DNA from: Channa argus
Taxonomy: Eukaryota
DNA length: 57,606 nt
NCBI RefSeq assembly: GCF_033026475.1
Contig: NC_090210.1
Span: 20,187,894 to 20,245,499 of the forward strand
Direction of reading: 5' to 3'
Position numbers and translations under genes: made by a program. Shown here one piece after another: positions 1-57,207 of the stretch. Each line of letters starts with the position of its first letter. Within the stretch, counting starts at the first letter, position 1. Below the pieces are notes generated by a model, which searched no databases, was not told the origin of the DNA, and saw only the letters and a list, made by a program, of their open reading frames with translations.

Positions 1-176
1 TTAGTCATTATCAAATTACACGGGACAACTATTGGTCGTTTGACCTAAAAGGAAAGTCAGTGAGGAAAACAGAAATTGGACTTTTGAAGCAATAATTATT
101 GCTTCAAAAGGCTTTTACTCATTTTTAAAAATATACCCCTGCTTTGTAGAGGAACTCTCTTAGTACTCGAGCGTAC

Positions 177-377
177 CTGTGTGGCCGTCTGAGCAGTGGG
201 CAGTGATGATCTGGTCTTTGTTGCCGTCCGGGAGATCCTTGTACCAGGTGACCTGCACCACCTTCTCATCCCCCTCCGTCCGGTAATGACAGGGCAGCCT
301 GGTCTGACTCTCTGCCAGAGAGCGCAGGGAGGTGTTGAGCTCAAGAGGCTCCACAAAGTCGCCTTTCACACAGACCG
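177..377 (-). CDS. Internal exon of an Ig-like V-set domain, partial IgSF gene; encodes ...VKGDFVEPLELNTSLRSLAESQTRLPCHYRTEGDEKVVQVTWYKDLPDGNKDQIITAHCSDGHTG. Rest of gene lies beyond window start
   Basis: ORF 160..369(-) carries the B-strand Cys (LPCHY) and C-strand Trp (VTWYK) about 15 aa apart, typical of IgV. AG acceptor at 378-379 and GT donor at 175-176. Confidence 0.45.
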
Positions 378-1944
378 CTGAGGAGGGTAATCAAGGCAGA
401 AGTTGAGGGATTTAAAGATTTAGGACACATGTGGAGAGCAGTGAGCTGTCAAATGCCTAAACTATTGTGAAATTGATAAGAAGGTCAAATGATCAAACAC
501 AATTGTAATAATTAACTTCCAGTCAACAGACAAGTAAAAACACCAAAACATTGCTGAACTGGGGATGGTTTCCAATAGCTGGTTGAAATCAGGATCCAGT
601 TCCAAGTTGAAAAAAGGACCTAGATTTGTTAAATTCTGCCGTGAAACAAATCCCTCATTGAACCTTACGTTCATTTTGAGTGACCCTCCATGAAGACGGC
701 CGTGTGGCAACACTTCAACGTTTATGGGAAGATACTCACGGCAAAGAGGAGACGATGAGTCCTTTGCTTTAACATGTCAGTACTGTTCATCATGTAAAAG
801 AAAGAACGTGTGGATAACAAATTTCAGCCAGGACCAAAGTGGTGAAATGAACAACTGACCATTAGTGACGTCACTCGAGTCATGACACTAGTGTGTCTAC
901 AAACAAGAGCTGAGAAATTCGTAATTTTTAAAATTAAATCCACACAAGATTTTTACATTGCAAAGCTGCAGTTAATAATAAATAAATAAACCTCCAACCT
1001 CCAGTGGGTCAAGCTAATTCACCTCCTACCCAGCAGACATCGCTGGTCAAAGGCTTGGAGAGCATCAGTCCGTACAAACACAAAATAAAAGAAATAAATT
1101 ACTCAGGCAGAGTTTTTAAGGAGACATGATGTCCATCAACATAGTGACGATTACTGAATTCTTCCACTTTTAGTAAGACTAAAAAAAAAACCTCTGGTGT
1201 GGCTGTAGATCATGCAAAGAGGGAAAAAAACACAGAAAAACAGCAACTGAGTGAAAATGATCTAGTTTTCATTTTATATCCTCCATCCACAAGCTTTGAT
1301 AATAGATGGATGGACAGACCGATTGAATTTCTTGGCCTGATAAAACAAAGATCTGTGCTGAAGTACGTTCTTTCTTTCAGGACTACAAAAACAGATGTTT
1401 AAATATGTAAATGGTTTCAATCATTTCATAATGGTAACTAATGTATATTCCATAACGCATTTGGCGTAACATATACCACAGACAGGTGCGTGTAGAGGCG
1501 AACACTTTCACCAAACCTGTTTGTCTGTAGACATGCAGACAACGACAAAACATGCAAACCGCACAAAGAATGGATGGGGGGGCTGAACATACGATCCGAA
1601 TCCTGTGAGGCGACGGTGCTAAAAACTTTGACAATGGTGCTAAAAGCTTGAACAATGGTACTTTTATAAAGAAAAACAAAAAATTCTCACTTTAGACGCT
1701 AAAACGTTTCCTGTTTGTTCAGGAGCTAATGTGACACAGTCGGGGGTTCACAGGATTTTCAAAATCAGTGTAATGCTACAGGACATACATCACATTTCCA
1801 GTAAATGATTCTATTGTCTCAGTCCCCATCAGTATTCAGCAAGTAATATTTAATGCTGTGATGACCAACAGGTGTCAGAACACAGTGCCTGGCAGCTTGC
1901 TTCTGAAGGTTATGACAATATTTCTAATTTGAATCTGGAACTTC

Positions 1945-7289: not shown

Positions 7290-8144
7290 CTGTGGGATGG
7301 AAACAGAAATGATTACAAAAGGTGCTTTAGCAGCAATCACTATAAGGCGCAAGATGTTAGGTATCTGACATATCTAGTTCCTCATGACAATGAGTCACAT
7401 GGGTGCAAATATGTTTGTTATATACTAAGAATTTAGGATTAATCCAGTCATGTACTTGTACATACTAAATAAGTCAATTAACAGGAAGTGGGATATGACA
7501 CAAGTGTTCATGTCAGGAAACACTGCTGGAAACTTTGAGTGTGTACAGTGTAGTAATGTAGGTTGGTGGTCAGCTCAAGCTTACAGGAAATGATAGACTA
7601 AGGTTGCTTTTAAAGCAGAAGTACTGAATTGAAGAGCAATATACCACAAAATAAATTCAAGTATAAAGCATATTTGACTATAACAACAATCCTGTTTTTT
7701 GCCCCCCACAACAACAATAATAGGAACTTTAATGTTACCTCAGATGTATTTTTGGTTGAAGTCATCTGTCAAAAACAAATCACAAAGCCCATTTTATTCT
7801 CCTGTTCACATATTATTCATCATCAAATGTAATTAGACAACGCGGGATTTAATCTGTAACACTGCCGGTACGTTTGAGAGGAAGACTTTACTTCTAAAAG
7901 TGGCTAGCCATTAACATTAAAGACCAACGTATTGATTAGGACAATATAGAGGAAGTTGTGTATCGTGCAATCTTCATAAGTTTTTAACACATAGTTTAAA
8001 TTAAAAAAAGGAAACGTCCTAAAGTTATTCCTCTAATCTCATCTTTGTGTGTGTCTAGTTTTTTTAATATTAACACAGCGATATAACAGTTGTACAATCT
8101 TCAAAATGGTGGTGTTGATTTGTGTTGCTCCCATTTCGTCTTAC

Positions 8145-8236
8145 CCTTAGCCTGCAGTATAGGACAGTGAGAATGATGCCGTAGAGGATGAGAATCCCAT
8201 CCAGGATGTAACATATAGTCATGTCTTCAACGGCCT
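8145..8236 (-). CDS. fcer1g: fcer1g transmembrane exon ...EAVEDMTICYILDGILILYGIILTVLYCRLR
   Basis: Matches human FCER1G TM segment [24 protein letters not shown] with the conserved TM Asp. Acceptor ctttgcag|AG, donor AGG|gtaaga. Confidence 0.8.
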
Positions 8237-8387
8237 CTGCAAAGTGAAAACGGCATTGTTTTCCACAGGAAAAAATGTTACACAGCGTTACACACATATA
8301 TACTACGTTACTACGAATATTCGGTACTACAGGTACTGTAAAATCTTCCTAAAAGAGCTTTAAAAAAATCCCTCTAAACTTCCTCAC

Positions 8388-11673: not shown

Positions 11674-11934
11674 TCACACGGAGGTCTCGGACTGCAGCCT
11701 CATGACAAACTTGTGGCTCTTTGGATCGATGAACTCCTCACCGAGCCGCAGGAAGGGAAGCGGTATCACCGTGACCACCAGGGAGAAGTCCAGGCGTCGC
11801 AGGGAGAAAACCAGACCTTGGCGCAGGGCTGAGGTCACGGGCTCCTCGCTCACCAGAGTCCACTGGCGCCCCCTGCCGTTCTGCTGCTGGTACTGCATGG
11901 TGGGGCCGGGGGTGAGGTATCGCTCCAGGAAAGC
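11674..11934 (-). CDS. vangl2: Vangl2 last coding exon AFLERYLTPGPT...FIDPKSHKFVMRLQSETSV* with PDZ-binding ETSV
   Basis: ORF 11674..12066(-). Acceptor ctcctccag|GCT. C-terminus matches VANGL1/2 (…VDPKSHKFVMRLQSETSV). Confidence 0.9.
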   Translation of the reverse strand, partial: AFLERYLTPGPTMQYQQQNGRGRQWTLVSEEPVTSALRQGLVFSLRRLDFSLVVTVIPLPFLRLGEEFIDPKSHKFVMRLQSETSV

Positions 11935-15923: not shown

Positions 15924-16223
15924 CTGATGGACACAAGCACAGAACAGGGTTTAAGGTCGGTGAGGCAAGTTCCTTAGTTTAATAACCCGAATGAGATTTG
16001 AGGTCATTTTCCCTCAGATTCTTGTCACAGATTTATTCCTCGTCATTGACCTATTCCTGCTTCTCCAGCTAAGCCCAAGTTTTGTTGCGGTCTCGGGAAA
16101 ACCACACAAATATATCAGATTTTCATGACTTTGCATTTCATTGTGCAGAAATCCAACGCTACACCAACGAAAACACACAAAGTACTAAAAGAACTTGTAC
16201 GTACGTGAACTGAGCGACTCACC

Positions 16224-16294
16224 TGTGCTTGCGTGAGCTTCGGGAGTGCGACGACTTATATGAGTAGCCCGAGTACTGCGACTCGTTGTCCATG
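16224..16294 (-). CDS. vangl2: Vangl2 first coding exon MDNESQYSGYSYKSSHSRSSRKH(R)
   Basis: ATG at 16292-16294(-), donor CAC AG|gtgagt. Matches the VANGL2 N-terminus MDTESQYSGYSYKSGHSRSSRKHR better than VANGL1. Confidence 0.85.
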
Positions 16295-16700
16295 TCTCGG
16301 GTCGGCGGTGAGCGGGCTTTACGAGCCCCACCTCCTCCCCCAGTGCCGCGCTGCTCGCCGACTCCTCCCAGCTGGCTCTTGCGCTCAGAGATGGATTTGG
16401 TGGAGAGAGCCAGGGGCAGCTTGAGAAGGTCAACCTTACTCCTGAGGGAATCTATCTTGGAGGCTGATGAGGAGGGAGCAGGAGAAGGGAGGCGGGAGAA
16501 CGGGGAAGAGGCTACAAAGAGGAAGAGAAGTGGAGGAAGAGGGATGGGAGAGGATGGTGGGTAGGAGAGTCACAGCAGGGTAGAGCTGTGGCGGCCGTGG
16601 TCTGAAAGAGACGGACATAGACGAGATAAACGAGCTGAACACGCGTAAAACAGGCCCAGTTTGAGCTACTGGGAACAAGTATATAATTTATACATGGAAA
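16295..16700 (-). promoter_or_regulatory. vangl2: GC/CpG-rich 5'UTR and putative promoter of vangl2
   Basis: High CpG density immediately upstream of the start codon. The spurious ORFs here are GC-driven. Confidence 0.4.
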
Positions 16701-18119
16701 CTGACTGGAGATCACTAGAATACGGAACAAGACACATTAGTACCTTTTCATTCTTCAAGACATTCTCATAGTCGACCATCTAGATAGACTTCAAGGGCCC
16801 CACAATCTATTGTGAGCTTCCTTTTCATGTTACACACGTTAGTCTTGGTATAAACCACAAGATAAAAATCATTTGGAAATACTTCCTTCACAGCAGGCAT
16901 TCAAAGAGCACATTAAAGTCAAAGCACAACCCTCCACAAAAACTAAAATAAGAATAAATTTGAAGAAAAGCACATCATTACTCTAATACACTGAGGTTTT
17001 GCCGGTACATTCTAACAGGGGTCTGGTTTGGCTCACAGATAATGGGGACTAATTAATTGTTTCTGCTGGTGCTTCTGCCTTAAGTGAAGCATAGTTAAGC
17101 ATAGATGATAAATGTTTTGCCTTATTACTTGCTTACAGAATATACTTTATTTGTTGTTAAGCGAGTGATTTCTGTCATGTCAGCATTAAAGGATGGGTTC
17201 ACCATCTATCATGTCGTGTTCTCAAACAGTTAGGAGACCATATGAGCACTGACACAGGCTTTACTGCACTCATTCCTCCTCCCGCTTATCTGAAGACAAT
17301 ATGAGGCTTCAACATTGTACACTGGACACATTATGAAGATTTCTAACAATATTTGATGAGACAGAAATACGAAATACGAATACGAAAACTCATTCCTGTG
17401 GATTCTGGCCCCCCATCACTTCACACTGAGAGATTTTTATTTATTATTATTATTTTCTACAGCAAATGAGTCTAAACCTTTTTTGTCCAATTTACAGCCC
17501 CAAAATCCCACAATATTCTAATTTCAGTTGTATAAAGCAGCAAACATTTACAACATAGAAGCTGAAACAAGCATTAAAAACGATTAATAGCCAATTGTTT
17601 CAGCTAAAGTAAATGAAACGTTTTGATGCACAATAGTCGGCAGGAGCAGCACAGAAATGGGATTGGCATCAGGTTTCAGGAAGGAATATAAGTCAAACAT
17701 GCTTTTCAACCTGTTTAGTTCTACATCTTAATTACGTTTTAAATTAAGAGAAGCTGGTAAAAGGTCTCTGAAATCAAGACTGGAGTCAAGTTTGGGTGGA
17801 GTGGTCATAGGGCTTCAAGCATAGACTTAATTTAAAAAGAATTAATTGTCAAGGGGTTTGAGCTCAGGTTTAAACAAAACTTTTTGATGCACAATAATGA
17901 TCACAATGTTTCCAGGTCAACCATGAATAAAACCAAGAGAGAAACACACACAAAAAAAACCCCTGCATGTTCTGGTATGAAAATTATTCAACCAGTACCT
18001 CGAGGATCAGAAGGATTAGGATCCAGTTTCAGGAAGACATATCAGCCAGATTAATTATGACAAAAAACAAAAAAAAAAAAAAAAACAACACATCAACAAC
18101 AACTTGAAAGTAAGAGTCC

Positions 18120-18240
18120 ATGCGTGGGTGTTTGTTCGTGTGGGAATCAAACCTCTGGCTGTGACAGTGAGAACTGTGAACCATCGACCAAGTGATACTC
18201 AAACATGTGAAGCCACTAAACTGAGGCTTTAGCTTCCGCT
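18120..18240 (-). repeat. Possible tRNA-derived SINE fragment (GGTTTGATTCCCACA box-B-like, TTTAGTGGCTTCACA box-A-like)
   Basis: Box A/B-like motifs on the minus strand. Weak call. Confidence 0.25.
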
Positions 18241-19175
18241 TTGGGTTTTTCCTATCACGTATTCCAGGTCTCGGCCAAGGTTAATCATCACAAAACTGCA
18301 TCTCGTCTCGCTGCTTTAGCCGACGTTAGCTCGGACACAATGGCAGCCATATTGCATTACTGTGTTTTCACAAAACTTGTTTGCCCTCTCCCTCCCTCTC
18401 GCGGTCTCACATTCCCTCCCGCACTCCCCTCGTCCCCAGGGAAACAGGGCCTCTCCGCTGCCATGGTGATGAAAAAGGGCGTTCAGCTGGAGGGGGATTG
18501 GAGGTTGACAGTTGCCGTGGAAACCTGACCTCAAGCCGCCCTCTGCCACTCGAGAAAGGAAAAGAATTTGCCAAAATAAAAGTGTTGGCATGACGGATGT
18601 TGTACTGTCATATGCTGGTTAAGTAATAAAGGGAGGGTGTGGCTCGTTGGCTTTGATTGGTCCTCTGTGGGAAATGGAGAGGGGCGTTAGCTGCCTTCAC
18701 TGTCTTTATTCGAGCCTGGATTCATTTTATGTGGCCTCTATGCTCCATCAGTGTCATTGTGTTGAAATCCACTTCCCTTTGAGCTACATACTGTACAACA
18801 AGGAATCTGTCAGTGCGATTTCTGCCAATTTATCTACATCAATTTACCCCCCGCCCCCCCATCCACTCCAAAACTGCCTTGAAATTAACCAGACCAGAGA
18901 TTTTGCAGCCCTGCAGCCATGTGTGAAACCTCATCAACATACTTTCTCCAAACCACAAAACAGTCTCTTCCTGCTGCATCATCATCATCATCATCACCTT
19001 TTACCTTGAGTATCAGTCAAGAAATTAGCATCTTGTCCGCAGAGATGTGATATTGTTTTCTTAAAGAGCAAACATATGATTCAAACGCTCACCACATTCC
19101 TCTGCAGCAGAAAGAAACTTCAAAGCATCACCCAACATAAGACATTTCTCTAAAGTGCAGGACTTTTTTTTTTTT

Positions 19176-19300
19176 GTCTTTTCAGCTTATCCCGTGAGTT
19201 CAGGGTCACCACGGCGGATCATTGTCCGCATGTTGATTTGCCATAGTTTTTACACCGGATGCCCTTCCTGACGCAACCCTCCCTTGGCAGGACTTTGAAA
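19176..19300 (-). repeat. Interspersed repeat copy 1 (cggcttatcccgtgagttcagggtcRccacRgcggatcattgtccgcatgttgatttgSca), poly-A-tailed element on minus strand
   Basis: About 80-85% identical copies at 48474-48560 and (inverted) 55040-55112. Confidence 0.7.
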
Positions 19301-22300
19301 TGAGGAAGGAAAATTAAGAAAATGTCAATGTTACAAATGTGACCGTCTCAGCTGCTCTGCATCTCAAGCTCAATTATTAATCACTGCTGATTCACATGGA
19401 AGAGAAGATTTAAGTGGAGGGGGAAAAAAAAGGAGGAGGACACAAGCATTCCCAGACAAACCACATATTTTTAGACAGACAAAAGACAAAATCTAAATAG
19501 TGTTTTGAACTAATGGCTGTGGATGTTGAGCTGGAACTTGCTCACGCAGACAGAAACGTTGACCAAAATAACAATCAGAACTCATCAGTGGTCTTAATGT
19601 TTAGCCTCCCATCTTTAAAAAAATAACAATTACAGCAATGCGGGCTGCATTTTAAAAGGGAAAACATTAAAAACAACAACAACAAAGAATCTCAGATTTT
19701 AAATAGACGTTTAAACTAGAAGCCAGTGACCACTGAAGGTGCAAAAGCAACATGTTGGCCCCAGAAAATACTGTTCATAAGATGTTCATAAAGAGCTTAC
19801 CACCTTAGTAAATAGGGTCTTTCGTGTGTTTATGAGTCTCAGAACCTTATTCTATAATTTCAGGGTAATAATCTCCCATTTCCTGGGCACAACTAAAAAT
19901 GACAGCCCTCTGCTGGCACAACAGCTACGTTCACAGATTCACCTAACTCAAGTAGCTTCAGCGTCTTCGGGCCATGAATATAAACAACAAATTCCAAACA
20001 TCTTATGTTATGTTTTAGGTTTTTTTTTTTTGGTGCAGATTATTATTAAAGTGCTTGAGCAAGACGGTGGTGGCTTAGACAACGAACCCAGAAAAGAGAA
20101 TCACGACCATCTAATCAACAGAGGAATGAATAAAAAATTAAAAACAAAACAAAAAAAAAAAAACACAACACATTATTGCTGCACCCCAGAGTCAAAGAAA
20201 CAGACCGACAGAACAGAAAGATCTAACAGTAACAACTTTTTTTATGCCTAACAGAGAATATAGATATTTAGCTACAGTTCAGAGTCTAGTTTAATAAATT
20301 ACATATGTTACGAAGAAATGTTTCCATTCTGGGCCAGATGATTGACTTGTGTCCTAAATTCATGTACGTCTGAGTCAGGTTTCAAACAATTCCAACAATG
20401 ACTTTGGACACAGTACATTCAGGGCTTCAAGGCAGCAATGAATGAAGAATGTCTCTCAGTCTTTCTGAACCTCAACGCGAAACAGAGGATTGACAGTTTT
20501 CAGAACGAGGGACTGACAACGTTCTGCACTGACCTCTCAGGTGGAGGACATCTTGTCAACATGACAGCACGGCACTTAATGACTAACACCTGCCACCAAA
20601 CAAAACAAAAAATGTAGTTGTCTTTTAAACGACAGCATTCATTCACTTATTAAATCTTTCAAGAGGAGCTAAAGCTTGAACAGAGGGAAGAAGCTGGTTT
20701 ACAGTTCTCACCTGATTTAGCCTGAACACATTTGCAGGTTGCTACGTCTCATGTCTGCACTTCAATACATTTGTCTAAGCCTGTAAAAAAAAAAAAAAAA
20801 AAGTGCCATTTGAGAAAAAATTAAATTAAAACCTTCACCCTAAACGTTCCATATTCTCCCTCTCTCAGTAATTTCTGCCCCTGACCCTTGAACTCTGAAA
20901 TAAACCAGCTTGTTTACCTGCCCCTCACTCTGTCGGCTTGTTCCGTAAGAATATGACTGAACACTTGATCTACAAAGGTGTGGTCCGGTGCTGAGATGGA
21001 TTAAGTTTCCTATTCAGTATCCTATGGCCTACTTAATGAACCACACCAGGACTCTTCTCATCAACATCAGGCAGCAGCAGTAACGATAGATTTACTCTCC
21101 AAAGTGCATCAGTGAGACGTACAGCCTTTAAGTAAATACACAGCATCGGCTGTAGTATTTGATCCATGTCGCCATTAAAAAAAAAACAAAAAAAAAAAAC
21201 GGCTCCTTTCTTTTCATCTTACCATTGGCCCCCAGCAGCCCTTGTTTACCGAACAGTAGTGTGACTCCTCAGCTCATTTCTGCATTTCTTTTGCACGTCC
21301 TGATGCAAGAAAATCACCCTTGTACACATCACTCTTGGCTGACTTCAACACAGCAGTCCAGTAATCTGTGTGTGCATGTGTGGTCTGAGATTGAACAGTC
21401 CTAATGTTGAGCTTTCAGGCTGAATGGCTTTACGGTTTGTGCAAAAGAGTGTGTAGAACCATTTCTTTTTTAAACTGATCTAAGTGCCCGTCCCTCAAAA
21501 ACAAAAAAAAAGACTTAATGACCTCAATCTTAAAAAAAAATTAAAAAAACACCCGAATTTGCTAAATGAACAAATAAGAACAGACACAAAAACAGACATA
21601 ACCACAAGCACACAAAATTCCCCATATTTTACAGAGGATGTGGTCTTGTTGTCCTCACTGGTAACGACAGCCCTGATTATATGCAATTTACTTTGAGCAA
21701 CCTCCAGCCAGAAATTATAACAACAAATAAAAAGTAATCATGCAGCCCACTTGGCTGGTTATCAAACACCAAGTTTCTAAGCATTGTTTACTTATTTTTA
21801 TTGTCAGTCTTAATTTACATAATAACTTTGCATGAATTTGATTTAGGAAAAGTTTGATTATGATCACTATATGTTAAGAAACACGGTGTTTCAGTAAAGC
21901 AGGAAAATGTAGTTATGATTTCAATTTATCGAATCAAAAACTTGCATTCACGTTCTTAGCACTTTAGAATGGGCATTTATGCACCTTTGAGTTATGGTGA
22001 TTAAATGTATTGCTCTTACTGGAAAATGAAAGCATTCACCTTTAACCGCCTATTCTGAACTGATGCATCTTTCTGTTTTCCTTCACGTTTCCATCACTTT
22101 GTCATCTGCATTTCTAATGTAAAATTGCAAATAAATAAATAAAAACGTAAAAAATTCCAAATATTCTGTGACTAATAAAGTGTTGCTGCAAACATGCAGC
22201 TCGAGTCACAAGACATAAAACTAGCAGATGTAGGATTTTACAGCCTCTATTCTCCCCAAGGCAAAAAGAAATCAAGCTGTCATCAAACATTCTGAGCTTC

Positions 22301-22597
22301 TGGCACAAGACAGCAGCTGTCTGGGTGGAAAAGTAATCTGGACCATCTCTGAAATGACCAGCTCCATTCAAAAGCCATTTGAGGCCTGATATACCAACTG
22401 TGAAAATAAGCATGCACACACAAAAACTCAGGCTCCATCGGGGGAAGAGGCTCATCAGTGTGCCAGGGCCACACACACACACGGGACTGACCGCCACCCA
22501 CTGCTGCCTGTGACAACATCAGTAAAACCAGAGAAAAACAAGCCAACTGCTACTGTCAGCCTTAGTGCACACATGGCCAGCAAACCGGAGCAGGTGT

Positions 22598-22599
22598 CG

Positions 22600-22640
<41 letters not shown>
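22598..22640. repeat. (TG)n microsatellite, about 20 units
   Basis: ctgtgtgtgtgtgtgtgtgtgtgtgtgtgtgtgtgtgtgtgtac. Confidence 0.95.
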
Positions 22641-23799
22641 GTGCTGGGATTCAAACACAAATGGCCACACGGGCTCCGTCTTCAGATCCCAACAAAGTAG
22701 AGCAGAGACATGAAGTGGCTTAACAAACTCAGATGAGATTGATGTGGTTCAGACACAAAACTCTCCCAAGCCTCAGGAAGCTCTCTTCAACAGCAGATGT
22801 TACTTCTGAATTATCGGTTTCTGTGCATGAAATATCGACGGGTGCACAGAACGCACTGCCAGAAGAGAAAAAGTTGGGTTTAAAGTCTTCAAATTGGTAG
22901 TACTTTGACAACAAACAAGAAAACGGATAAATATTTAACATTGGAAAAGGACAGGAAAAGTATTGTCATGGTTTTTTTTATAGATATTTCAGAAACAATA
23001 ACTGATTAGTTTTTTTGTTGGTTTAAGATTTTAAAGGGTCTGTTCCCCGAAATCACAAGCAAAGCCTTTTTCGCCATTTACACTCCAACAAAAAGCAGAT
23101 ATCAAAGCATGTTTTAATGATTTTTAAATAGAATGGTCATCTATGAAGGCTTCAGACACAGTTTATATTTACACACCCCCCTGATCCTAACCAAAATTAT
23201 GTTTTACCCTTTAATTCACTGATGTTTGAACCAGAGATGAAACAATCAATTAACTTACCCACTTTAGGAATACAGACGGAATCACTGTAGCAATTTAATG
23301 GTGCTGATTTAACACATGATCGTATTCGATAGTCAAGTGACATTTTGCCAGTAAAGAAGGAAAACCGTGGTTTGCTCCCGGGGTTTTGATGAACATAACC
23401 AGGACACACTGGCTGAAGACTGACTAAAGTCTTATTAGGCAGAAATTGCCAAATATTCACTGGATGCAGCTGCTTACTTTCTATCAATCACTGTGGATTT
23501 TGGGTAGAGGGGCCTGTTCATTTGACCCAACAACCCCCCGTCCTTACTTTCTGGCATTTTATGGAGAAAGGAAAATACTAAGACCAAGCTTAAGATCCCC
23601 CTGACAGCAGACGGCATCGATTATCCCAATTCCCAGTGATATGAGGCATCTCCGACAAACTACAGCCTGACATACTTACACTGAAGCTGCTGCAGAATCT
23701 GCAGGGAGTTTATCGCAGCACGGTAAGTCGCGGTTTCTATCACCATCACGTGCCCTCTGGATGGAGCAGGTTATAGCGATAAGGGGCATCACCTCCGAC

Positions 23800-24900
23800 G
23801 TGGATTTATGGCACTATTTACTTTTAGGCGCAAAGCGAGGCCCGTAACCGCTCCCGCAACTGTTTCTGTTTGACTTTAATGGCGCACCAACGTGGAAAAA
23901 AAAAAAAAACGTTTGGACACATTTTAGATCGAGTCTGTGGTGACACGGATCAAGAGTCAAGCTCATCAATAATTTAACAATATTCCACATGCACAAAGGG
24001 GCCACCAAGACGCTCGGCTGCTGCGAGGAAACACCCGCTTTTAGGGGCCAAAATAAAGAGTTGTGCGACCTACAAAGATTAAAAAGGGAGGGTGTTGTAG
24101 GAGAGCAGGACAATGGGAGGCTCCCAGGCCCGCACTGGTGGCGTCCTGATGCCCAGGGATCCAAGCGCTGGTTCCCCTTTCGGTTTCCAAGCGGGACGCC
24201 CTTGCAGTCAATGAATGGACGCGCTCACATTCCCACCAGTCCTCCGCCGAGGCGAACATCCCAAATCGTCGGCCTACAGTCGAGCAGGACGCATCGCTCC
24301 CTGGATCCCCTTCTCCACCCTCCGGTAGCGTCTCTGAAGACAACGCTTCTTCCTCGAGCTCAAAATCCGTGCCGAGAGCTACGTGGCCGCAGCGGGAACA
24401 ACAATGGGGCCGATGAGGGTCCTAAACTTCCCTGCGGTTTCACAGAAAAAGGCGACCATCGCGTCCTCTCGACTATTGTTTGAGAAAACCGGAGATCTCC
24501 GGCGCCCCACATCCTCCCTTCCCTCTCCGCAGCGCACACGCACCCACAACCAGCCCCATGACAAGCATTTCAAGACATTTCCCACAGAAAAAGTACTACT
24601 TACTTATTCCAGATTGTCCATTCAGGTATTTTTCACTTTCCACTTTCCTTCCACTCCGCCGTAGCAGCGTGCGCCCCGCCTCCGCTCCAGTTTGGCCCCT
24701 CCTCTGTGTTCCCCTGGGGGCTGAGGGAGGCACGGCCTGTGAAACCGGAGGTTCTGCCGCAGCACAAGTCAAACCGCGCTGCGAGGTCTGTCCTTACTTT
24801 GTGCACTCGGTGGACAACACCGAGAAGCTTCATGTCACAAAAGTAAGTGTCTCCTCTGGCTCATAAAACACTTTAAGGGCCGCTGATTGGATAAAGTCCT
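23800..24900. promoter_or_regulatory. Orphan CpG island in the vangl2-ncstn intergenic region, candidate promoter or first exon of an unannotated transcript
   Basis: Dense CpG (many cg, gcgc, ccgg). A plus-strand ORF (24480..24866) ends at AAAAG|gtaagtgtc. No homology recognised. Confidence 0.3.
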
Positions 24901-24952
24901 CCACCACCACAACCACCACCACCACCATCCTCCTCCTCCTCCTCCTCCTCAT
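24895..24952. repeat. Compound triplet repeat (CCA)n(CCT)n
   Basis: ccaccaccacaaccaccaccaccaccatcctcctcctcctcctcctcctc. Confidence 0.9.
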
Positions 24953-25974
24953 CACAGTTTTAAACACAGTCTGAGATTTATGGTCGTTGATGATTTGTGT
25001 CAAATTATTTAGGAAACTACAAAGATTTGACTGAATGTACACAGCTACCCAAAATTATTTGATAATTTGTGTTTTAACCTCAGAATATTTATATGACGAT
25101 GCAGTTTGAAGCTGTTCAAAGGCATCAGTGGGTTATAATAAGTACAATTACTAAGTACTATTAGCTTGGCAATTACTTAAACCTAAATATTTTAAGTCAA
25201 TTTTAAATTGAGTTTCTTAGCATTATTTAACTAATTACAATATATTGTACAATTATAAACATATGAACACATCATCTTTAAGTTGAACTAACCTATTTAT
25301 TAGCTTGGATCACACATGGTTGACTTTTGTGCTTTTGTTGGGACTGAAATAATTTTTGAATACTTACAAAAGTGAACAGGTAATTTTATTAAGATCTTGC
25401 TGATGGCGATCGTTTTAGAGATTTTCCTGTCCTCTGCCTCTGACAACGGTGGCAGACTGACCTCAGCAGGAAGTTTCAATATTAGCCAAGCAACAGATGG
25501 CCTTTTCCAGGCAATGCGGTTAATGTTAGGGGCAGTCATTGGTCAAGGTGATGGGCCCATGAAACATCTCAAAATAAAAAAGTTGACAACGTCCGGTTGA
25601 GGTTAAAAGACGACCGTCTTTGTCTGCAGCAGCTGCCTCTCCAAAAGCTGGCCCCTCCTCATCTGAGCCCAATAAGTTCAGAGAACATCTTAGAGAAGGG
25701 TTGAACTGAGGGATGAGCTGAGGGACCCATGTGAGACAATGTCCCTGTGAACTTATTTTATAAACTGCAACTGGAACTGTCCAAAATGTGTCAAAAACAT
25801 TATAGCTTTATTTACATCTTGTGTGTATATTTATATGTATATCTATATATATACTGTATGTTTGCACAGACTCCCACAATCTGAACTGCCATCTTGTCCA
25901 ACTGTAGCAGCAATAAGTTTAAGAAACTGATTCCTGTATGACTATCAGTGTCTCACATTGTTTTGGAGGAATTT

Positions 25975-26450
25975 CGGTCCATTCTTCTTTACAGTGTCGC
26001 TTCAGTTCATTGAGGTTTTTCTGCATTCACTAATGCACAGCTCTCTGAAGGTCCCACCACAGCATTTCAATTCTAATGATTTACCGATGTGCTTCCGATC
26101 ATTGTCCTGTTGAATGACACAATTTCGACCGAGCTTCCACTGTGGGACAGATGGCCTCACATTTGCCTCTAAAATACTGGGGTGCCCCAATAGTATTGGG
26201 GGTTTCTGCTGAAATCCTGTTTGATTTTTAACCAAACTTGGCACTGGGCATTAAGACCACTCAACTTCCCTTTGGTCTCATCTGTCCACAGGACATTGTT
26301 CCAGAAGACCTGTGGTTTGTTTAGGTTCAGTTTTGCAAACCTTTCTCCTGGCAACTGTTCCAAACAATTGCGCTTGTTCCTCCTTCTAATTGTGCTGTCA
26401 TGTACTTTAACATTTAACAAGCTCAGTGAGGCCTGTAGGCTCTGAGATGG
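25975..26450 (-). mobile_element. Degenerate Tc1/mariner-family transposase remnant
   Basis: Minus ORFs 26169..26420 (…NVLWTDETKGKLSGLNAQCQVW…) and 26002..26244 (…CVIQQDNDRKHIGKS…) resemble Tc1 transposase motifs (WSDETK…, FQQDNDPKHTSK) with frame disruptions. Confidence 0.6.
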
Positions 26451-28618
26451 AGCTCTGTTTTTTTATTTATTTATTTATTTAGCATTTCTCTCTGTGCTGT
26501 TCTGTCTTACATTGGTTTGAATGTACTGGTACATCCACTTCTGGGAAGATTGGCAACTGTCTGGAATGCGTGTGAATAATCTTTCTCACTGTAGAACATT
26601 AACTCCACATAATTAGGAAATAATTCGATAAATCCTATGGAAGCGGTAAGGACTTAGAATTGCCCACAAATTGTTTTTCTTTTGGATTAATTTATCCTAA
26701 ATAAATAATGACACAGTGAAAGCAACTATATGACCTGCTAATCGGATGATTTGTTTTTACACCAAAAAAATCCCCTAAAACAAAAGTGGCAGTGCTAACT
26801 TTTGCACGTCACCGATTACTCCATCTACTTTTATTTTGATACTGAATTTTTATATTTCAGCTTTTTATTTCCCCACTTTTTTTGAAGAACCTGAAGTTTC
26901 AGGTTACTTACTTTCAGGTTACTCAGATACTTAGAAACTTGTTTCTCTTTTCATTTTTTTAACAACCATGATTTAAAAACACGTAGGATGAATTTTTACA
27001 ACTGAAATAAATATTAAAGTGAAAAAACTGTCATAAAAGACAAACTAGGCTCTATTATTATGCTACATGGAACGTTGTGAGGGGGGGACCGTCCGTCTGT
27101 CGTTGAGCCGTCTCTTATCACTCAAGAGTTGTTCCTTATTCAGATCTTAAAGGTGAAAGAATAGAAATATATTAAAGTTTAAACAGACTGAAAAATGTTG
27201 ATCCTCCCGAATTTGTGATCATTTGCAAAAGACATTATTCTACATTTTTGTATAATATAATCTTTTTCTCTTGATGTGCCCAAGACTCAAGGCTTTCTTT
27301 TAAAGGGTTACAAGGTTAATACATTTGAGAACCAGTGGTTTAGATGATACATATGAAGACACGTTTCTGTTTGCAAACAGCCATTCATGCATCCAAAGAT
27401 CTTCCTCTTAGTGATTTAGGTGTTCCTAATAAAGTGGTCCCAGTTTAAAATTATATATCCACTTTATTATCAGAGCACCGTACATAATTATTCCTTTTCT
27501 CTAAGCAGGAAGTAGCATCTCCCTGCACATTCGGTGGATGATTCCTTATTGTAACAAGAAGAAATTACTGTTTGATAAAGGCTGACGTGCTGCCAACCCG
27601 GTTTGTTTCCTATTTTTGTGTAAAATGCTGTAAAAGACAATATGGAAAAAAGCCGTTTATTTCATCATCAAGGCATCACAATTAGTAATTCATCCAGCCA
27701 TTAAATGAACACTCATCCACAAAATTAAAACCTTGTGTGTTTTGTCACAATTTTCAGAATTAAAACAAACTTTGTGGAAAACCTAAAAGAGTGCACAACC
27801 AGTACCAGCAAATTTTCAATGTCAAAACATAGGATTTTCTCACTGGATTTGAAAACAGTGGCAGCTGATCGATACGGATTGATTATCAGCAATGCCACAC
27901 TTGTATGTTTGGAAACTTATCCTCCACACAAATATCCCAATATGTGAACTTACAGTGGGTTTACACATTCAGAAAAAACCTAATGTGTAACTATTTATAT
28001 TGGGATTGAATTTTATAAATATTTTTGATGAGAATTTTTTAATTTAATTCCCTAGATATTTATCCACTTTTCAAGACCTTCACCACATATTTTCAGATTC
28101 TGCAAAACCTTAAATTTATATTTTACTACTCAAAAAAGTGGTCTCTTATCATTAGAGCTGAGTGATAAGTTAACTTCATTAGAGAAGACAGCTACAGTAT
28201 TGCACAAACACAGCAATTCTCACACACACCTGTACTTAATTGATCATAAACACTGAATCACAGTCAGATGTTCGCACGCACACGCACACACACAGTTCAA
28301 TGCTTAGTGCCGATGACACAGTAAACAAAACATTCTCTTACAATAAAAAGGGAAAAACAATAACCTAAAACAAATGAAATATAGACATCTTTTCACTGGC
28401 AGGGCCTGCTGGTGCCTGACCAGTGTTTTCAGACCCTGATGAGTCCAGATCCATCCAGGTCAATCCAGTCTGGTCCAGTCATCATGTCACACCTCACCTG
28501 AGTGAGTCCGTAAACATGGAGTGATCATCCAAAAACCCTTCTGCTGCTCTGACTAACCTGTCTGTGTACCTACTCATTGTGTGTTCTAAAGAAAAGACCC
28601 TGTCCATGTATGGTTCGG

Positions 28619-28655
28619 ATAAAAGAAGAAGAAGAAGTAGTAGTAGTAGTAGTGG
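28619..28655. repeat. (AAG)n(AGT)n trinucleotide repeat in ncstn 3'UTR region
   Basis: aagaagaagaagaagtagtagtagtagtagtgg. Confidence 0.9.
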
Positions 28656-28684
28656 TTGTTGGCTTGCAGGGTCCTCAATGTGGT

Positions 28685-28807
28685 TTAGTAGGTGGCACTG
28701 GTGGGCTCCCTCCCTGAGCTGAAGAGTATGTCGGCCTTCGAGCTGATGAAATATGTTAGCAGGAAGGAAGTTAGCAGCACGCCAACACCCACGCCGAGCG
28801 TTAACAT
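28685..28807 (-). CDS. ncstn: Nicastrin last exon, TM and tail MLTLGVGVGVLLTSFLLTYFISSKADILFSSGREPTSATY*
   Basis: Acceptor cttctag|ATG, stop TAA 28685-28687. Matches human NCSTN C-term [39 protein letters not shown]. Confidence 0.85.
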   Translation of the reverse strand: MLTLGVGVGVLLTSFLLTYFISSKADILFSSGREPTSATY

Positions 28808-29860
28808 CTAGAAGAAGAGAAGGGAGATTTAGCTCCATGTAGAACGCCTGCACATTATCAATGACCATCGAACCTACAAACAAACAAAAAAAACGAATAC
28901 ATCCAGCCACCGGTGCTAATACACACTTTTTTCCACTTCAGACAGTTGGCAATTAACGTGGCATCATAAGTAGTTATAAAGACAAGACATAAACACAAGC
29001 AGCGCAACCAACTACGCTGACACTAACTTGCTGAAAGCAATAACATGTTTATGTTTATACCAGAGGAGCAATATACATTGTACACGCAGGTTTCAAACGA
29101 TTCTTTAACTGCTACACCTATTAGTTTCATTTCTTTTTAATGTGATGTGGTGAGAAACTTGTTGAGGCTTGAGCTATTATAAATATAGGTAATCCATCAC
29201 TGTCAACATGAGCCAGCTAAGAAATGCTTTCCAAGGTAGAACTAACAGAACGTGTTACACAGACGACAAATAAAACTAATTTTGCCCTGTGATATATCAG
29301 GAATCAGGAATAATAAAAAAAACATAGATACTGTGAAAAGTATCTAGTAAGTATTTGTATGTTTCACATTTAAATGTTGTTAGTTCTAACAGATAACTTT
29401 ACAGTCCCTGCATTCAACAAATACTGCTTTTTGATAGAAAGTCAAACAGGAGATGTTGATAAAGTGTTTCTCAACTCTGCAAGTTCAATTTCATACCCTG
29501 TTAATATGTCCAACAAAAACCCCAAAATGCTTAAGAAAATAAAAACTAACCAACAGTTTGGTTTCTTAATAACCAAACAATCTGTCTGGACAACTATCAG
29601 CTTCCCTCGATATATAACTAATACATCAGTGCTTGGTTTTGATGGCCTACTTTATGTTCCAGGCCTCACCATGATTATTTTCTCTATACACCCACATAAC
29701 ATTGGTTTGTCTTTACAACATATCATTAAAGTCATAACCTACAGTATGTGAATTAATTATAATCCATTATGATAGAAAAATAACAACAAATTGCAAATTG
29801 TGGCTCTTTACATAAATCTTTGTACCGTGTTTGACACTGATGAGCGAAGTGTAGACTTAC

Positions 29861-30073
29861 CTCCAGATCATGACTGGCAACCAAAAAAATGCGTCCTTTG
29901 ATGCTTTTCCACCTGGACTCTGTCCACGTTGAGTAATCTGTGGAGGTGTACTGTCGCAGGTCAAAGGCTGGGGACAGGGCTTTGGATTGACGAACTGTGG
30001 AGCGGACGCATAAACCCTCCTTTTGTGTACCGTTGGAAGGTGCCACACCCTGAACCCACGTGTAAAAGTACAA
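29861..30073 (-). CDS. ncstn: Nicastrin exon LYFYTWVQG...[25 protein letters not shown]
   Basis: ORF 29753..30073(-). Acceptor ttcctcag|TTG, donor GAG|gtaagt. Confidence 0.85.
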
Positions 30074-55647: not shown

Positions 55648-57061
55648 CTGAAAGAAATATGACCACATCAGCCAGTGAACTTTATGTCTAAGTCTACGAG
55701 ATAGTCTGCCAAATGTCAGAACTCACAAATTATTGACTTATTCCCATCAGCACATGCCGCATATTCCAACTAATTATACTAACAACCACAGTATGTTGGA
55801 CAAACATAGCTAAACTTAGTGCATTAATATGACAATACAAGATATGCTTCCACTTCATTACAGTATATTTCAGAGACAAATGCTGTACTTTTTACTTTAC
55901 TATGTTTACAAAGATAGTTGGAAATAAGTATTACCCTTTAGATGGAATGACATAATAATCACATTAAAAAAAACAAACTATGCACCGTTCAAGATTAGAC
56001 CAGTGGTTCCCAGCGATACGGCCAGCGTCACTGTCATTGTCAGTTTGTTCCAGCATTTACTTCTTTTGTCATAGGTAGAATGACTGGAAAACAAAACCCT
56101 TCTGAAACAATGGGTTACTGTTGCTCTTTTACCAGCTGCCCTGATCTCTACCTCATATTGGTGGCGTTTGTGCTAGAGAGGGTAAAACTAATTCGATGCA
56201 TGAGTGCAAACAGTTGTTGACACAGGTTTGTGGTACAACTTGCAAATTTATTTCACATCTTCTTTGTTACCCAACCATCTCCAAATTACATCGATAGCTC
56301 CTTTTTTTTTTGGCTTTTTGTTGTGTTTGTAGGCTCAGAAGAGATGCCCACCTAATGCAATACATCCAATCACGTCATCACAAAATTGTCAATATCACAA
56401 TTATATATAGTTAAAATTTAAAGTTTGTTTAGGTAAACTTTGTATGCAGTGCTTTAAGTTGCAATGCAGTGTATCTGATCTAAGTAATCTCAGTAAAGCT
56501 AGTTCTATTAACGTCATCACTGCTCATAGTGCGTCGTTCCCAGTAAAACGTAAACACCAGTAGTTGAACCAGTTATCCTGCTCATACACAAGTTACACAA
56601 AGGCGACTATACTCTGTGATAGCAAAAAAAATATGCGTAAAGTTAAAATCAGCAGTTTTTCGTTTTGTTTAATAACGGCGTTCCAGTAAAAATAAATAAA
56701 TATATAAATAATCCAAGGGCAAAGACGCAATGTGTGAAAACAGCTCGGTGCATCTGCTATCTTAGCTAAGTTAGCAACATAAGGCGATTTATCACAAAGT
56801 CACAAGCAACCGAAAACTTTCTTAACCTCTTGTGTTTATTTGGGGGGATGCTACGACCACCTGGCTTCACTGTAAGTCATAGCTGTCAGCTGCTTTATCG
56901 ATTTTTGGGACTCGACCCGGACATCCACTCGAGCACATGAGCTAGGTTACCCCCGGCACACATACACGGGAGGAGCACAGTCTCCCGTTGTAACATCACA
57001 AAAATCCGTACTGTCGTCGGCAACACGACAACGAATGTATATGCGTATTATCATCACTTAC

Positions 57062-57125
57062 TGTCCAACAATTCGTCCAGCTCTGCATCGTGTCCAGCGG
57101 CCGACTCTCCCGTTCCCGACGCCAT
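57062..57125 (-). CDS. pex19: pex19 first coding exon MASGTGESAAGHDAELDELLD(S)
   Basis: ATG 57123-57125(-), donor GAC A|gtaagt. Matches human N-term ...ELEELLESALDDFD. Confidence 0.75.
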
Positions 57126-57207
57126 GATGTTACCTTCTCCAAACACCGAGCCACCGAGCACGTCTCTAAAAAATGACGTTTCTGTTGGAAGAACGTCGCC
57201 CTAATAA

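What the first reader, a model, noticed from the sequence alone, without database searches (positions are those of the whole stretch)
23800..24952. Orphan CpG island with a candidate 5' exon and an adjacent (CCA)n(CCT)n repeat where tetrapods carry NHLH1
This roughly 1 kb stretch has very high CpG density, unlike the flanking AT-rich DNA. A plus-strand ORF (24480..24866) ends at a strong donor, AAAAG|gtaagtgtc. A 58 bp compound trinucleotide repeat follows immediately. No homology was recognised. It could be the promoter or first exon of an unannotated or lineage-specific transcript (lncRNA or fast-evolving gene) occupying the position vacated by nhlh1.
Basis: seen in the sequence. Interest (0 to 1): 0.6.

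Follow-up and report, generated by a model that had tools for sequence, protein, structure and literature searches.

The report
CpG-island promoter of vangl2
The CpG-rich kilobase is not an orphan: it is the ordinary, well-conserved CpG-island promoter and short non-coding first exon of the planar-cell-polarity gene vangl2, which is read on the opposite (minus) strand and spliced across an 8-kb intron.

Summary
The window is Channa argus (snakehead) DNA. On the minus strand it carries pex19, copa, ncstn, vangl2, a CD3-zeta-like exon and an Ig gene. Positions 23600-24900 are the largest CpG island in the window, and a (CCA)9(TCC)8 repeat sits at 24901-24950. The interpretation does not hold. 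Two vangl2 mRNA contigs from a related fish begin with about 45 nt that map to 24647-24604 on the minus strand. They then continue exactly at the acceptor of the ATG-containing exon (16601). The junction has an invariant donor, GGAATAA|GTAAGTAG. This exon and the roughly 50-100 nt upstream are the conservation peak of the island, at 90-94% identity to Channa striata and Micropterus. The rest of the island (first-intron side) stays at about 72-75% identity to Micropterus over 1 kb. The plus-strand ORFs are no longer than chance. They have no family match and are broken by stops and frameshifts in the orthologous DNA. The plus-strand donor is not conserved. No nhlh1 remnant is present. Only about 3 kb separates the ncstn 3' end from vangl2 exon 1. 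Verdict: an ordinary promoter island of a known gene, of low interest. Not shown: TSS and exon-1 use in C. argus itself.

The parts
23600..24900 (.). CpG island (GC about 0.54, CpG obs/exp about 0.8-1.2). It spans the vangl2 core promoter, exon 1 and the first ~1 kb of intron 1.
   Evidence: composition; conserved vs Micropterus and C. striata from about 23859 to about 24913
24604..24650 (-). vangl2 non-coding exon 1 (minimal extent). The 3' end at 24604 is fixed by the splice junction. The 5' end (TSS) is not determined and probably lies within 24650-24730.
   Evidence: Transcript contigs L003 nt 23-67 and L006 nt 22-68 map to 24647-24604/24602 on the minus strand (89% id, E about 3e-9) and then continue in exon 2. 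The block is 90-94% identical across species.
24596..24603 (-). Exon 1 splice donor, GGAATAA|GTAAGTAG. It is invariant in four fish genomes.
24651..24730 (-). Conserved GC-rich, TATA-less core promoter (GGGGCCAAA..GGAGCGGAGGCGGGGCGCACG..GCTACGGCGGAGTGG). It contains a GC-box-like GAGGCGGGGC (motif reading is my inference).
   Evidence: 90% identity in bin 24650-24699; sequence read directly
23859..24595 (-). Intron-1 part of the island, with highly conserved patches (e.g. 24400-24449, 24100-24149 and 23950-23999 at 88-90% vs Micropterus). Inferred to be promoter-proximal regulatory DNA.
24901..24950 (.). (CCA)9(TCC)7.7 microsatellite, which reads (GGA)n(TGG)n in the vangl2 sense. It lies about 250 nt upstream of exon 1 at the upstream edge of the promoter. 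A trinucleotide repeat with different units (TGA/TGG) sits at the same place in C. striata and Micropterus.
16602..24603 (-). vangl2 intron 1 (8002 nt). It contains conserved non-coding blocks at 22218-22617, 20945-21080, 19456-19639 and 18191-19034.
16223..16601 (-). vangl2 exon 2. Its acceptor is TCTCTTTCAG|. It carries the 5' leader with the in-frame near-cognate ATA at 16455-16453 (Vangl2-Long, 54-aa extension) and the canonical ATG at 16293.
   Evidence: PMC11065751
11674..15923 (-). Remaining vangl2 coding exons: 15923-15800, 15058-14451, 13395-13262, 13045-12910, 12469-12226 and 11934-11674. The spliced product is 525 aa and identical to Channa argus Vangl2 (XP_067330997.1, KAF3698673.1).
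24480..24866 (+). It is a chance ORF antisense to vangl2 exon 1 and promoter, and is not part of the functional unit.

Best explanation
The island is the CpG-island promoter of vangl2, which is read on the minus strand. RNA polymerase II starts at one or several sites in a conserved, TATA-less, GC-rich core at about 24650-24730. It transcribes a short non-coding exon 1 that ends at 24604, with donor AATAA|GTAAGT. This exon is spliced across an 8.0-kb intron to exon 2 (16601-16223). Exon 2 holds the rest of the leader, including the AUA-initiated Vangl2-Long extension and the canonical ATG at 16293.

The island continues about 750-1000 nt into intron 1. The conserved patches there most likely act as promoter-proximal regulatory sequence and keep the region unmethylated, as is typical for developmental genes.

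Shown: CpG-island composition; gene order and strand; the exon1-exon2 junction in mRNA of a related fish; an invariant donor; conservation peaking on exon 1 and the core promoter.

Inferred: the exact TSS; use of this exon in C. argus itself; the regulatory role of the intronic part; the chromatin and methylation state.
For:: seven minus-strand coding exons with canonical GT/AG sites give a 525-aa Vangl2.

that product is 100% identical to Channa argus Vangl2 (P0238, XP_067330997-9).

RNA-derived Logan contigs L003 and L006 carry a full spliced Vangl2 ORF that is 98% identical. Their 5' UTRs map to exon 2 starting at the 16603 acceptor. Immediately 5' of that they map to 24647-24604 on the minus strand (89% id, E=3e-9), the only match to that segment in the window.

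the boundary is a GTAAGTAG donor, invariant in C. argus, C. striata, Micropterus and L011.

identity peaks at 24600-24699 (0.90-0.94) and falls to about 0.56-0.60 further upstream.

the whole island aligns with Micropterus (72-75% over 0.9-1.1 kb) and with another fish assembly (74.6% over 0.9 kb). In Micropterus and C. striata it lies at the same distance and orientation upstream of vangl2; the L011 contig carries no vangl2.

GC skew in the vangl2 sense is +0.41 to +0.54 across 24699-24500, as expected just downstream of a CpG-island TSS.

no other gene lies between the ncstn 3' end (stop about 28687, poly(A) signals 27661/27468) and vangl2.

human VANGL2 also has promoter/5'UTR CpG islands (PMC3668461).
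Against: The exon1-exon2 splice is shown only in another species' transcripts (SRR28040484 and SRR28040458, species unknown), not in C. argus RNA.

Those contigs start with adapter sequence, so the true 5' end is unknown and only about 45 nt of exon 1 are documented.

GenBank models of C. argus (P0118) and C. striata (P0264) place upstream exons at 18.4-19.0 kb instead. RefSeq lists three accessions for the same protein. Alternative first exons are therefore possible.

A more distant fish transcript (L007) has a 5' UTR that does not align to the island.

No CAGE, chromatin or methylation data could be consulted.
Confidence: 0.9

Rival explanations
1. The island is also, or instead, the start of a plus-strand non-coding transcript. 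This would be a divergent or antisense lncRNA from a bidirectional CpG-island promoter that uses the GTAAGT donor at 24843.
For: The donor core is consensus. The C. striata GenBank annotation places a 218-aa no-Pfam gene on that strand over the orthologous island. Two same-species Logan contigs (L001, L002) cover 23850-24910 unspliced, and two other C. argus genomic ORFs are not on record. Those libraries might therefore be RNA or an enrichment assay rather than plain WGS. CpG-island promoters are commonly bidirectional (general knowledge).
Against: The donor is GCCAGT in Micropterus and the segment is deleted in C. striata. Identity there is 0.56 and 0.00 respectively. An exon at 24480-24842(+) would start inside vangl2 intron 1 and run antisense through exon 1, which is not the geometry of a divergent promoter transcript. 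There is no spliced plus-strand transcript evidence. The C. striata model has no domain and fits an ab initio call on a GC-rich ORF.
Confidence: 0.12
2. The plus-strand ORFs (24480-24866, or 23989-24483) encode a lineage-specific or fast-evolving protein.
For: ORFs of 128-164 aa exist. The 164-aa ORF was called as a gene on Logan contigs.
Against: ORF lengths are within chance for this composition (41% and 16% of simulations). There is no Pfam match. The orthologous DNA in Micropterus needs frame switches and carries in-frame stops, and many indels are not multiples of three. The similarity covers only the conserved exon-1/promoter DNA block.
Confidence: 0.02
3. The island is a minor or alternative vangl2 promoter. 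The main C. argus TSS would lie nearer the coding region, in the conserved GC-rich block at 18.2-19.0 kb or directly upstream of exon 2.
For: GenBank gene models use exons at 18991-18943 and 18548-18411 with canonical splice sites. That block is conserved (76-81%) and moderately CpG-rich. Three RefSeq accessions share the protein. Transcript L004 does not reach exon 1.
Against: The only transcripts that extend beyond exon 2 (L003, L006) join it to the island exon, not to the 18-19 kb block. The extra GenBank exons supply an ATG to an ATG-less open leader, a typical predictor artefact given the Vangl2-Long ORF. The island is by far the strongest CpG island upstream of the gene.
Confidence: 0.12

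Closest known systems
Human and other vertebrate VANGL2 5' region (promoter/5'UTR CpG islands; non-coding first exon, ATG in exon 2)
   Same: There is a CpG island at the 5' end. A short non-coding exon is spliced to an ATG-containing exon that also carries the conserved AUA-initiated Vangl2-Long leader (PMC11065751). Human promoter/5'UTR CpG islands are described in PMC3668461. That human exon 1 is non-coding comes from my own knowledge and was not tested here.
   Different: No sequence-level comparison with tetrapod exon 1 or promoter could be made with these tools. Intron 1 here is 8.0 kb. The upstream neighbour is ncstn rather than NHLH1.
Generic vertebrate CpG-island promoters of developmental genes
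   Same: TATA-less and GC-rich, with positive GC skew downstream of the start. The island extends into intron 1, the promoter-proximal sequence is strongly conserved, and conserved non-coding blocks lie in the first intron.
   Different: Nothing unusual was found. Chromatin state (H3K4me3, Polycomb, hypomethylation) is untested.
Orphan CpG islands and lncRNA promoters
   Same: CpG-island composition, and no protein-coding potential of its own.
   Different: An orphan island by definition lacks an associated annotated gene start. This one supplies exon 1 of vangl2.

Membership tests
CpG island (Gardiner-Garden/Frommer-type criteria) | At least 200 bp with GC >= 50% and CpG obs/exp >= 0.6 | tested here: met
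   23800-24952 has GC 0.542 and o/e 0.81. Consecutive 200-nt windows pass across 23601-23900 and 24001-24900.
Promoter plus first exon of vangl2 | Sequence from the island is found at the 5' end of vangl2 mRNA, spliced to the next exon | tested here: met
   L003 and L006 (related species) join the homologue of 24647-24604(-) to exon 2 at 16601. Not tested with C. argus RNA.
Promoter plus first exon of vangl2 | Same strand as, and upstream of, the coding exons, with canonical GT donor and AG acceptor at the junction | tested here: met
   donor AATAA|GTAAGTAG at 24604/24603; acceptor TCTCTTTCAG| at 16603-16602.
Promoter plus first exon of vangl2 | Orthologous element at the same position in other species | tested here: met
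   C. striata and Micropterus carry the block 8-9 kb upstream of vangl2, at 90-94% identity on exon 1 and the core promoter; a further fish assembly also carries the block, though its contig holds no vangl2.
Promoter plus first exon of vangl2 | Mapped transcription start (CAGE/5'RACE) and active-promoter chromatin in this species | not testable with these tools
   No expression or chromatin data are accessible. The library type of L001/L002 is unknown.
Protein-coding exon on the plus strand | ORF longer than expected by chance | tested here: not met
   a stretch of >=146 aa arises in 41% of simulations, and >=179 aa in 16%.
Protein-coding exon on the plus strand | Reading frame and splice donor preserved in orthologous DNA | tested here: not met
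   stops, frame switches and non-3n indels are present. The donor is GCCAGT in Micropterus and deleted in C. striata.
Protein-coding exon on the plus strand | Similarity to a known protein family | tested here: not met
   no Pfam hit; only 4 unnamed ORFs over the conserved DNA block.
Orphan CpG island / independent lncRNA promoter | No association with the 5' end of a known gene | tested here: not met
   the island provides vangl2 exon 1.
NHLH1 gene or remnant | bHLH-coding similarity | tested here: not met
Known structured RNA (Rfam) | Match at the gathering threshold | tested here: not met
   0 matches in 17000-30000.

The most novel reading that the evidence does not exclude
Besides driving vangl2, the island fires in the other direction in Channa. 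This would give a snakehead-specific plus-strand non-coding transcript that uses the unconserved GTAAGT donor at 24843. The unspliced same-species contigs L001/L002 could be its trace.
Probability: 0.1. Interest if true: 0.15.

Novelty: already known. Interest (0 to 1): 0.08.

Why it matters
It matters mainly as a correction. An apparently gene-less CpG island that lies 8 kb from the nearest coding exon, on the 'wrong' strand for the ORF that catches the eye, turns out to be the standard non-coding first exon and promoter of a well-known developmental gene. It shows that CpG islands in compact fish genomes should be tested against 5' UTR exons of neighbouring genes on both strands before being called orphan. 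It gives usable coordinates for the snakehead vangl2 promoter, exon 1, intron-1 conserved elements and the Vangl2-Long leader. It does not open any new biological question.

Tried and rejected
(1) nhlh1 remnant: tblastn found nothing.

(2) Structured RNA: there is no Rfam hit in 17-30 kb.

(3) Coding potential of six island ORFs: no Pfam hits.

P0118 is not on record. The route through the listing of cluster members gave P0238 and the C. argus locus L005, but gene ranges there are CDS-only, so UTR exons could not be read from the annotation.

(5) I tried to decide whether the same-species contigs L001/L002 are DNA- or RNA-derived. Look-ups of an intronic ORF and of the big-exon genomic ORF found nothing, which leaves the library type undetermined.

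(6) The first 132 nt of L002 match nothing in the window or in L005, and the junction is not a canonical splice site. This is left unexplained.

(7) The 5' UTR of a more distant transcript (L007) does not align to the island, so it neither supports nor contradicts the result.

(8) ORFs at 26005-26462(-) look Tc1-transposase-like by eye but have no Pfam support.

(9) The bacterial promoter/terminator scanner and the phage, plasmid and E. coli collections were not used because they are irrelevant to a fish genome.

Full report
**Observation**

The stretch is a real CpG island. Positions 23800-24952 have GC 54.2% and CpG obs/exp 0.81. The whole window has GC 40.3% and obs/exp 0.48. Consecutive 200-nt windows that pass the usual criteria run from 23601 to 23900 and from 24001 to 24900, the longest such run in the window (finer profile).

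The compound repeat is (CCA)9 at 24901-24927 followed by (TCC)7.7 at 24928-24950.

The plus-strand ORF 24480..24866 exists only as a TTG-start ORF of 128 aa. It reads through the proposed donor rather than ending at it.

Stop-free stretches of this size are expected in DNA of this composition. A stretch of >=146 aa occurs in 41% of first-order Markov simulations of the island. A stretch of >=179 aa, the longest observed, occurs in 16%.

**Surroundings**

Stop-to-stop ORFs show recognisable exons on the minus strand throughout:
- an Ig V-set exon at 163-390;
- a CD3-zeta/FcR-gamma-type exon at 8073-8348;
- vangl2 at 11.7-16.4 kb;
- nicastrin (ncstn) at about 28.7-38.4 kb;
- copa at about 39.5-50.3 kb;
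- pex19 at about 54.3-55.7 kb.

I assembled vangl2 from seven coding exons with canonical GT/AG sites. The ATG is at 16293 and the stop at 11674. The 525-aa product is identical to Channa argus Vangl2 (P0238; KAF3698673.1, XP_067330997-9). A second C. argus assembly (L005, GCA_004786185.1) is colinear with window 26264-1662 at 99.66% identity. Its annotation has no gene in the 10 kb upstream of the vangl2 ATG.

The ncstn stop codon lies at about 28687. Poly(A) signals are at 27661 and 27468. Only about 3 kb therefore separates ncstn from the island. No NHLH1-like bHLH sequence is detectable, and there is no Rfam family in 17-30 kb.

**What the island is**

The protein search returned full-length, spliced Vangl2 ORFs from Logan assemblies of sequencing runs, that is, transcript contigs. 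Two of them extend 5' of the ATG exon. These are L003 (SRR28040484) and L006 (SRR28040458), whose Vangl2 is 98% identical to the Channa protein.

In both, the 5' UTR maps to exon 2 beginning at the acceptor TCTCTTTCAG| (window 16603-16602). The roughly 45 nt immediately 5' of that map to window 24647-24604 on the minus strand. That match has 89% identity and E about 3e-9, and is the only match to this segment in the window.

In the window this segment is followed directly by GTAAGTAG. The junction is therefore 24604|16601 and intron 1 is 8002 nt. Both contigs begin with Nextera adapter sequence, so the true 5' end is not known.

**Conservation**

I fetched the orthologous loci of Channa striata (L008) and Micropterus salmoides (L009, L010). 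In both, the island aligns at the same distance and orientation upstream of vangl2:
- C. striata: two blocks covering window 24763-24208 (75%) and 24003-23910 (83%);
- Micropterus: 24913/24714-23859, at 72-75% over 0.9-1.1 kb.

A contig of a further fish assembly (L011, GCA_028748405.1) aligns to 23936-24766 at 74.6%.

In the multiple alignment, the best-conserved part is exon 1 with its donor and the 50-100 nt upstream of it. Bins 24600-24699 are 90-94% identical to both species. Identity falls to about 0.56-0.60 further upstream. GGAATAA|GTAAGTAG is invariant in all four genomes.

On the intron side, patches at 24400-24449, 24100-24149 and 23950-23999 remain 88-90% identical to Micropterus.

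GC skew in the vangl2 sense is +0.41 to +0.54 across 24699-24500. That is the usual polarity just downstream of a CpG-island start site; this link is established knowledge and an inference here.

The microsatellite sits at the upstream edge. C. striata and Micropterus have a trinucleotide repeat with other units (TGA/TGG) at the same place.

**The plus-strand reading**

- None of six island ORFs hits Pfam.
They cover 43-48% of it, which corresponds to the conserved exon-1/promoter DNA block.
- Against Micropterus DNA, both plus-strand ORFs need frame switches and contain in-frame stops. The alignment is full of indels that are not multiples of three.
- The plus-strand donor is GCCAGT in Micropterus, and the segment is deleted in C. 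striata.
- The C. striata GenBank annotation does place a 218-aa product without any domain on that strand. I read this as an ab initio call on a GC-rich ORF.

**Mechanism**

This is the CpG-island promoter of vangl2. Transcription starts on the minus strand in the conserved TATA-less GC-rich core at about 24650-24730. That position is inferred from conservation and from the 5' limit of the transcript contigs.

Transcription produces a short non-coding exon 1 ending at 24604. This exon is spliced to exon 2 (16601-16223). Exon 2 carries the conserved in-frame near-cognate ATA at 16455-16453, 162 nt upstream of the ATG, which gives a 54-aa extension. This matches the Vangl2-Long isoform described for vertebrates in PMC11065751.

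The intronic kilobase of the island is most likely promoter-proximal regulatory DNA; this is an inference. Human VANGL2 likewise has promoter/5'UTR CpG islands, whose methylation silences the gene in colorectal cancer lines (PMC3668461).

**Caveats**

The splice is documented in a related species, not in C. argus RNA.

GenBank models of C. argus (P0118, 660 aa) and C. striata (P0264, 652 aa) add ATG-bearing exons at 18991-18943 and 18548-18411. These are probably predictor artefacts of the ATG-less open leader, but alternative first exons cannot be excluded. RefSeq lists three accessions for the same protein.

Two same-species Logan contigs (L001, L002) cover almost exactly the island and are unspliced. 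Two other C. argus genomic ORFs are not on record, so these libraries may not be plain genomic sequencing. Their type could not be determined. A plus-strand or read-through transcript is therefore not excluded. The first 132 nt of L002 remain unexplained.

**Verdict**

The composition and the repeat are real, and the ORF is chance. The island is neither orphan nor lineage-specific. It is the ordinary, conserved promoter and first non-coding exon of vangl2 on the opposite strand. Novelty: already known in kind and attached to a known gene. Interest: low.

Noticed in passing
window 16455-16293 (minus strand), vangl2 exon 2: The leader upstream of the vangl2 ATG is an open, conserved reading frame. 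It starts at a near-cognate ATA 162 nt upstream and gives a 54-aa extension (IDSLRSKVDLLKLPLALSTKSISERKSQLGG...). This is the teleost counterpart of the AUA-initiated Vangl2-Long isoform (PMC11065751).
   Followed up: partly
window 18991-18943 and 18548-18411 (minus strand): GenBank gene models for C. argus (Q8A73_015461, 660 aa) and C. striata (652 aa) extend Vangl2 N-terminally with extra exons here, which have canonical GT/AG sites. They are probably predictor artefacts that supply an ATG to the open leader, but they could be alternative 5' exons. The block 18191-19034 is 76-81% conserved.
   Followed up: partly
window 22218-22617; also 20945-21080 and 19456-19639: These are conserved non-coding blocks in vangl2 intron 1. 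The first is 83-84% identical to Micropterus over about 400 nt, about as conserved as the coding exons. It has no Pfam or Rfam match and is a candidate enhancer.
   Followed up: no
L001 (= window 23850-24910) and L002 (nt 133-1003 = window 23986-24856): Two same-species Logan contigs from SRR36132357 and SRR36132372 cover almost exactly the CpG island and nothing else was found for C. argus. The library type is unknown (possibly RNA or an open-chromatin/ChIP-type assay). L002 nt 1-132 match nothing in the window, and the junction is not a splice site.
   Followed up: partly
L008 2880-4478 (Channa striata; corresponds to window about 23990-25460, plus strand): The C. striata annotation calls a 218-aa, domain-less gene on the strand opposite vangl2 over the orthologous island. 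It is most likely a spurious ab initio model.
   Followed up: partly
window 26005-26462 (minus strand): ORFs here contain motifs that look by eye like a decayed Tc1/mariner transposase (..VLWTDETKGKL.., ..QQDNDRKH..). They lie in the spacer between ncstn and vangl2. Pfam gives no significant hit.
   Followed up: partly
window 28807-28688 (minus strand); 27661 and 27468: The ncstn last coding exon (…SKADILFSSGREPTSATY*) and candidate poly(A) signals are here. The 3' UTR is 84% identical to C. striata down to about 27583.
   Followed up: partly
window 8073-8348 and 163-390 (minus strand): A CD3-zeta/FcR-gamma-type transmembrane exon (PF11628, E=1.8e-12) and an Ig V-set exon lie downstream of vangl2. 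They match the neighbours annotated in C. argus, C. striata and Micropterus.
   Followed up: partly
window 56800-57200: A second strong CpG island (obs/exp up to 1.59) lies upstream of the pex19 coding exons on the minus strand. It is presumably the pex19 promoter.
   Followed up: no
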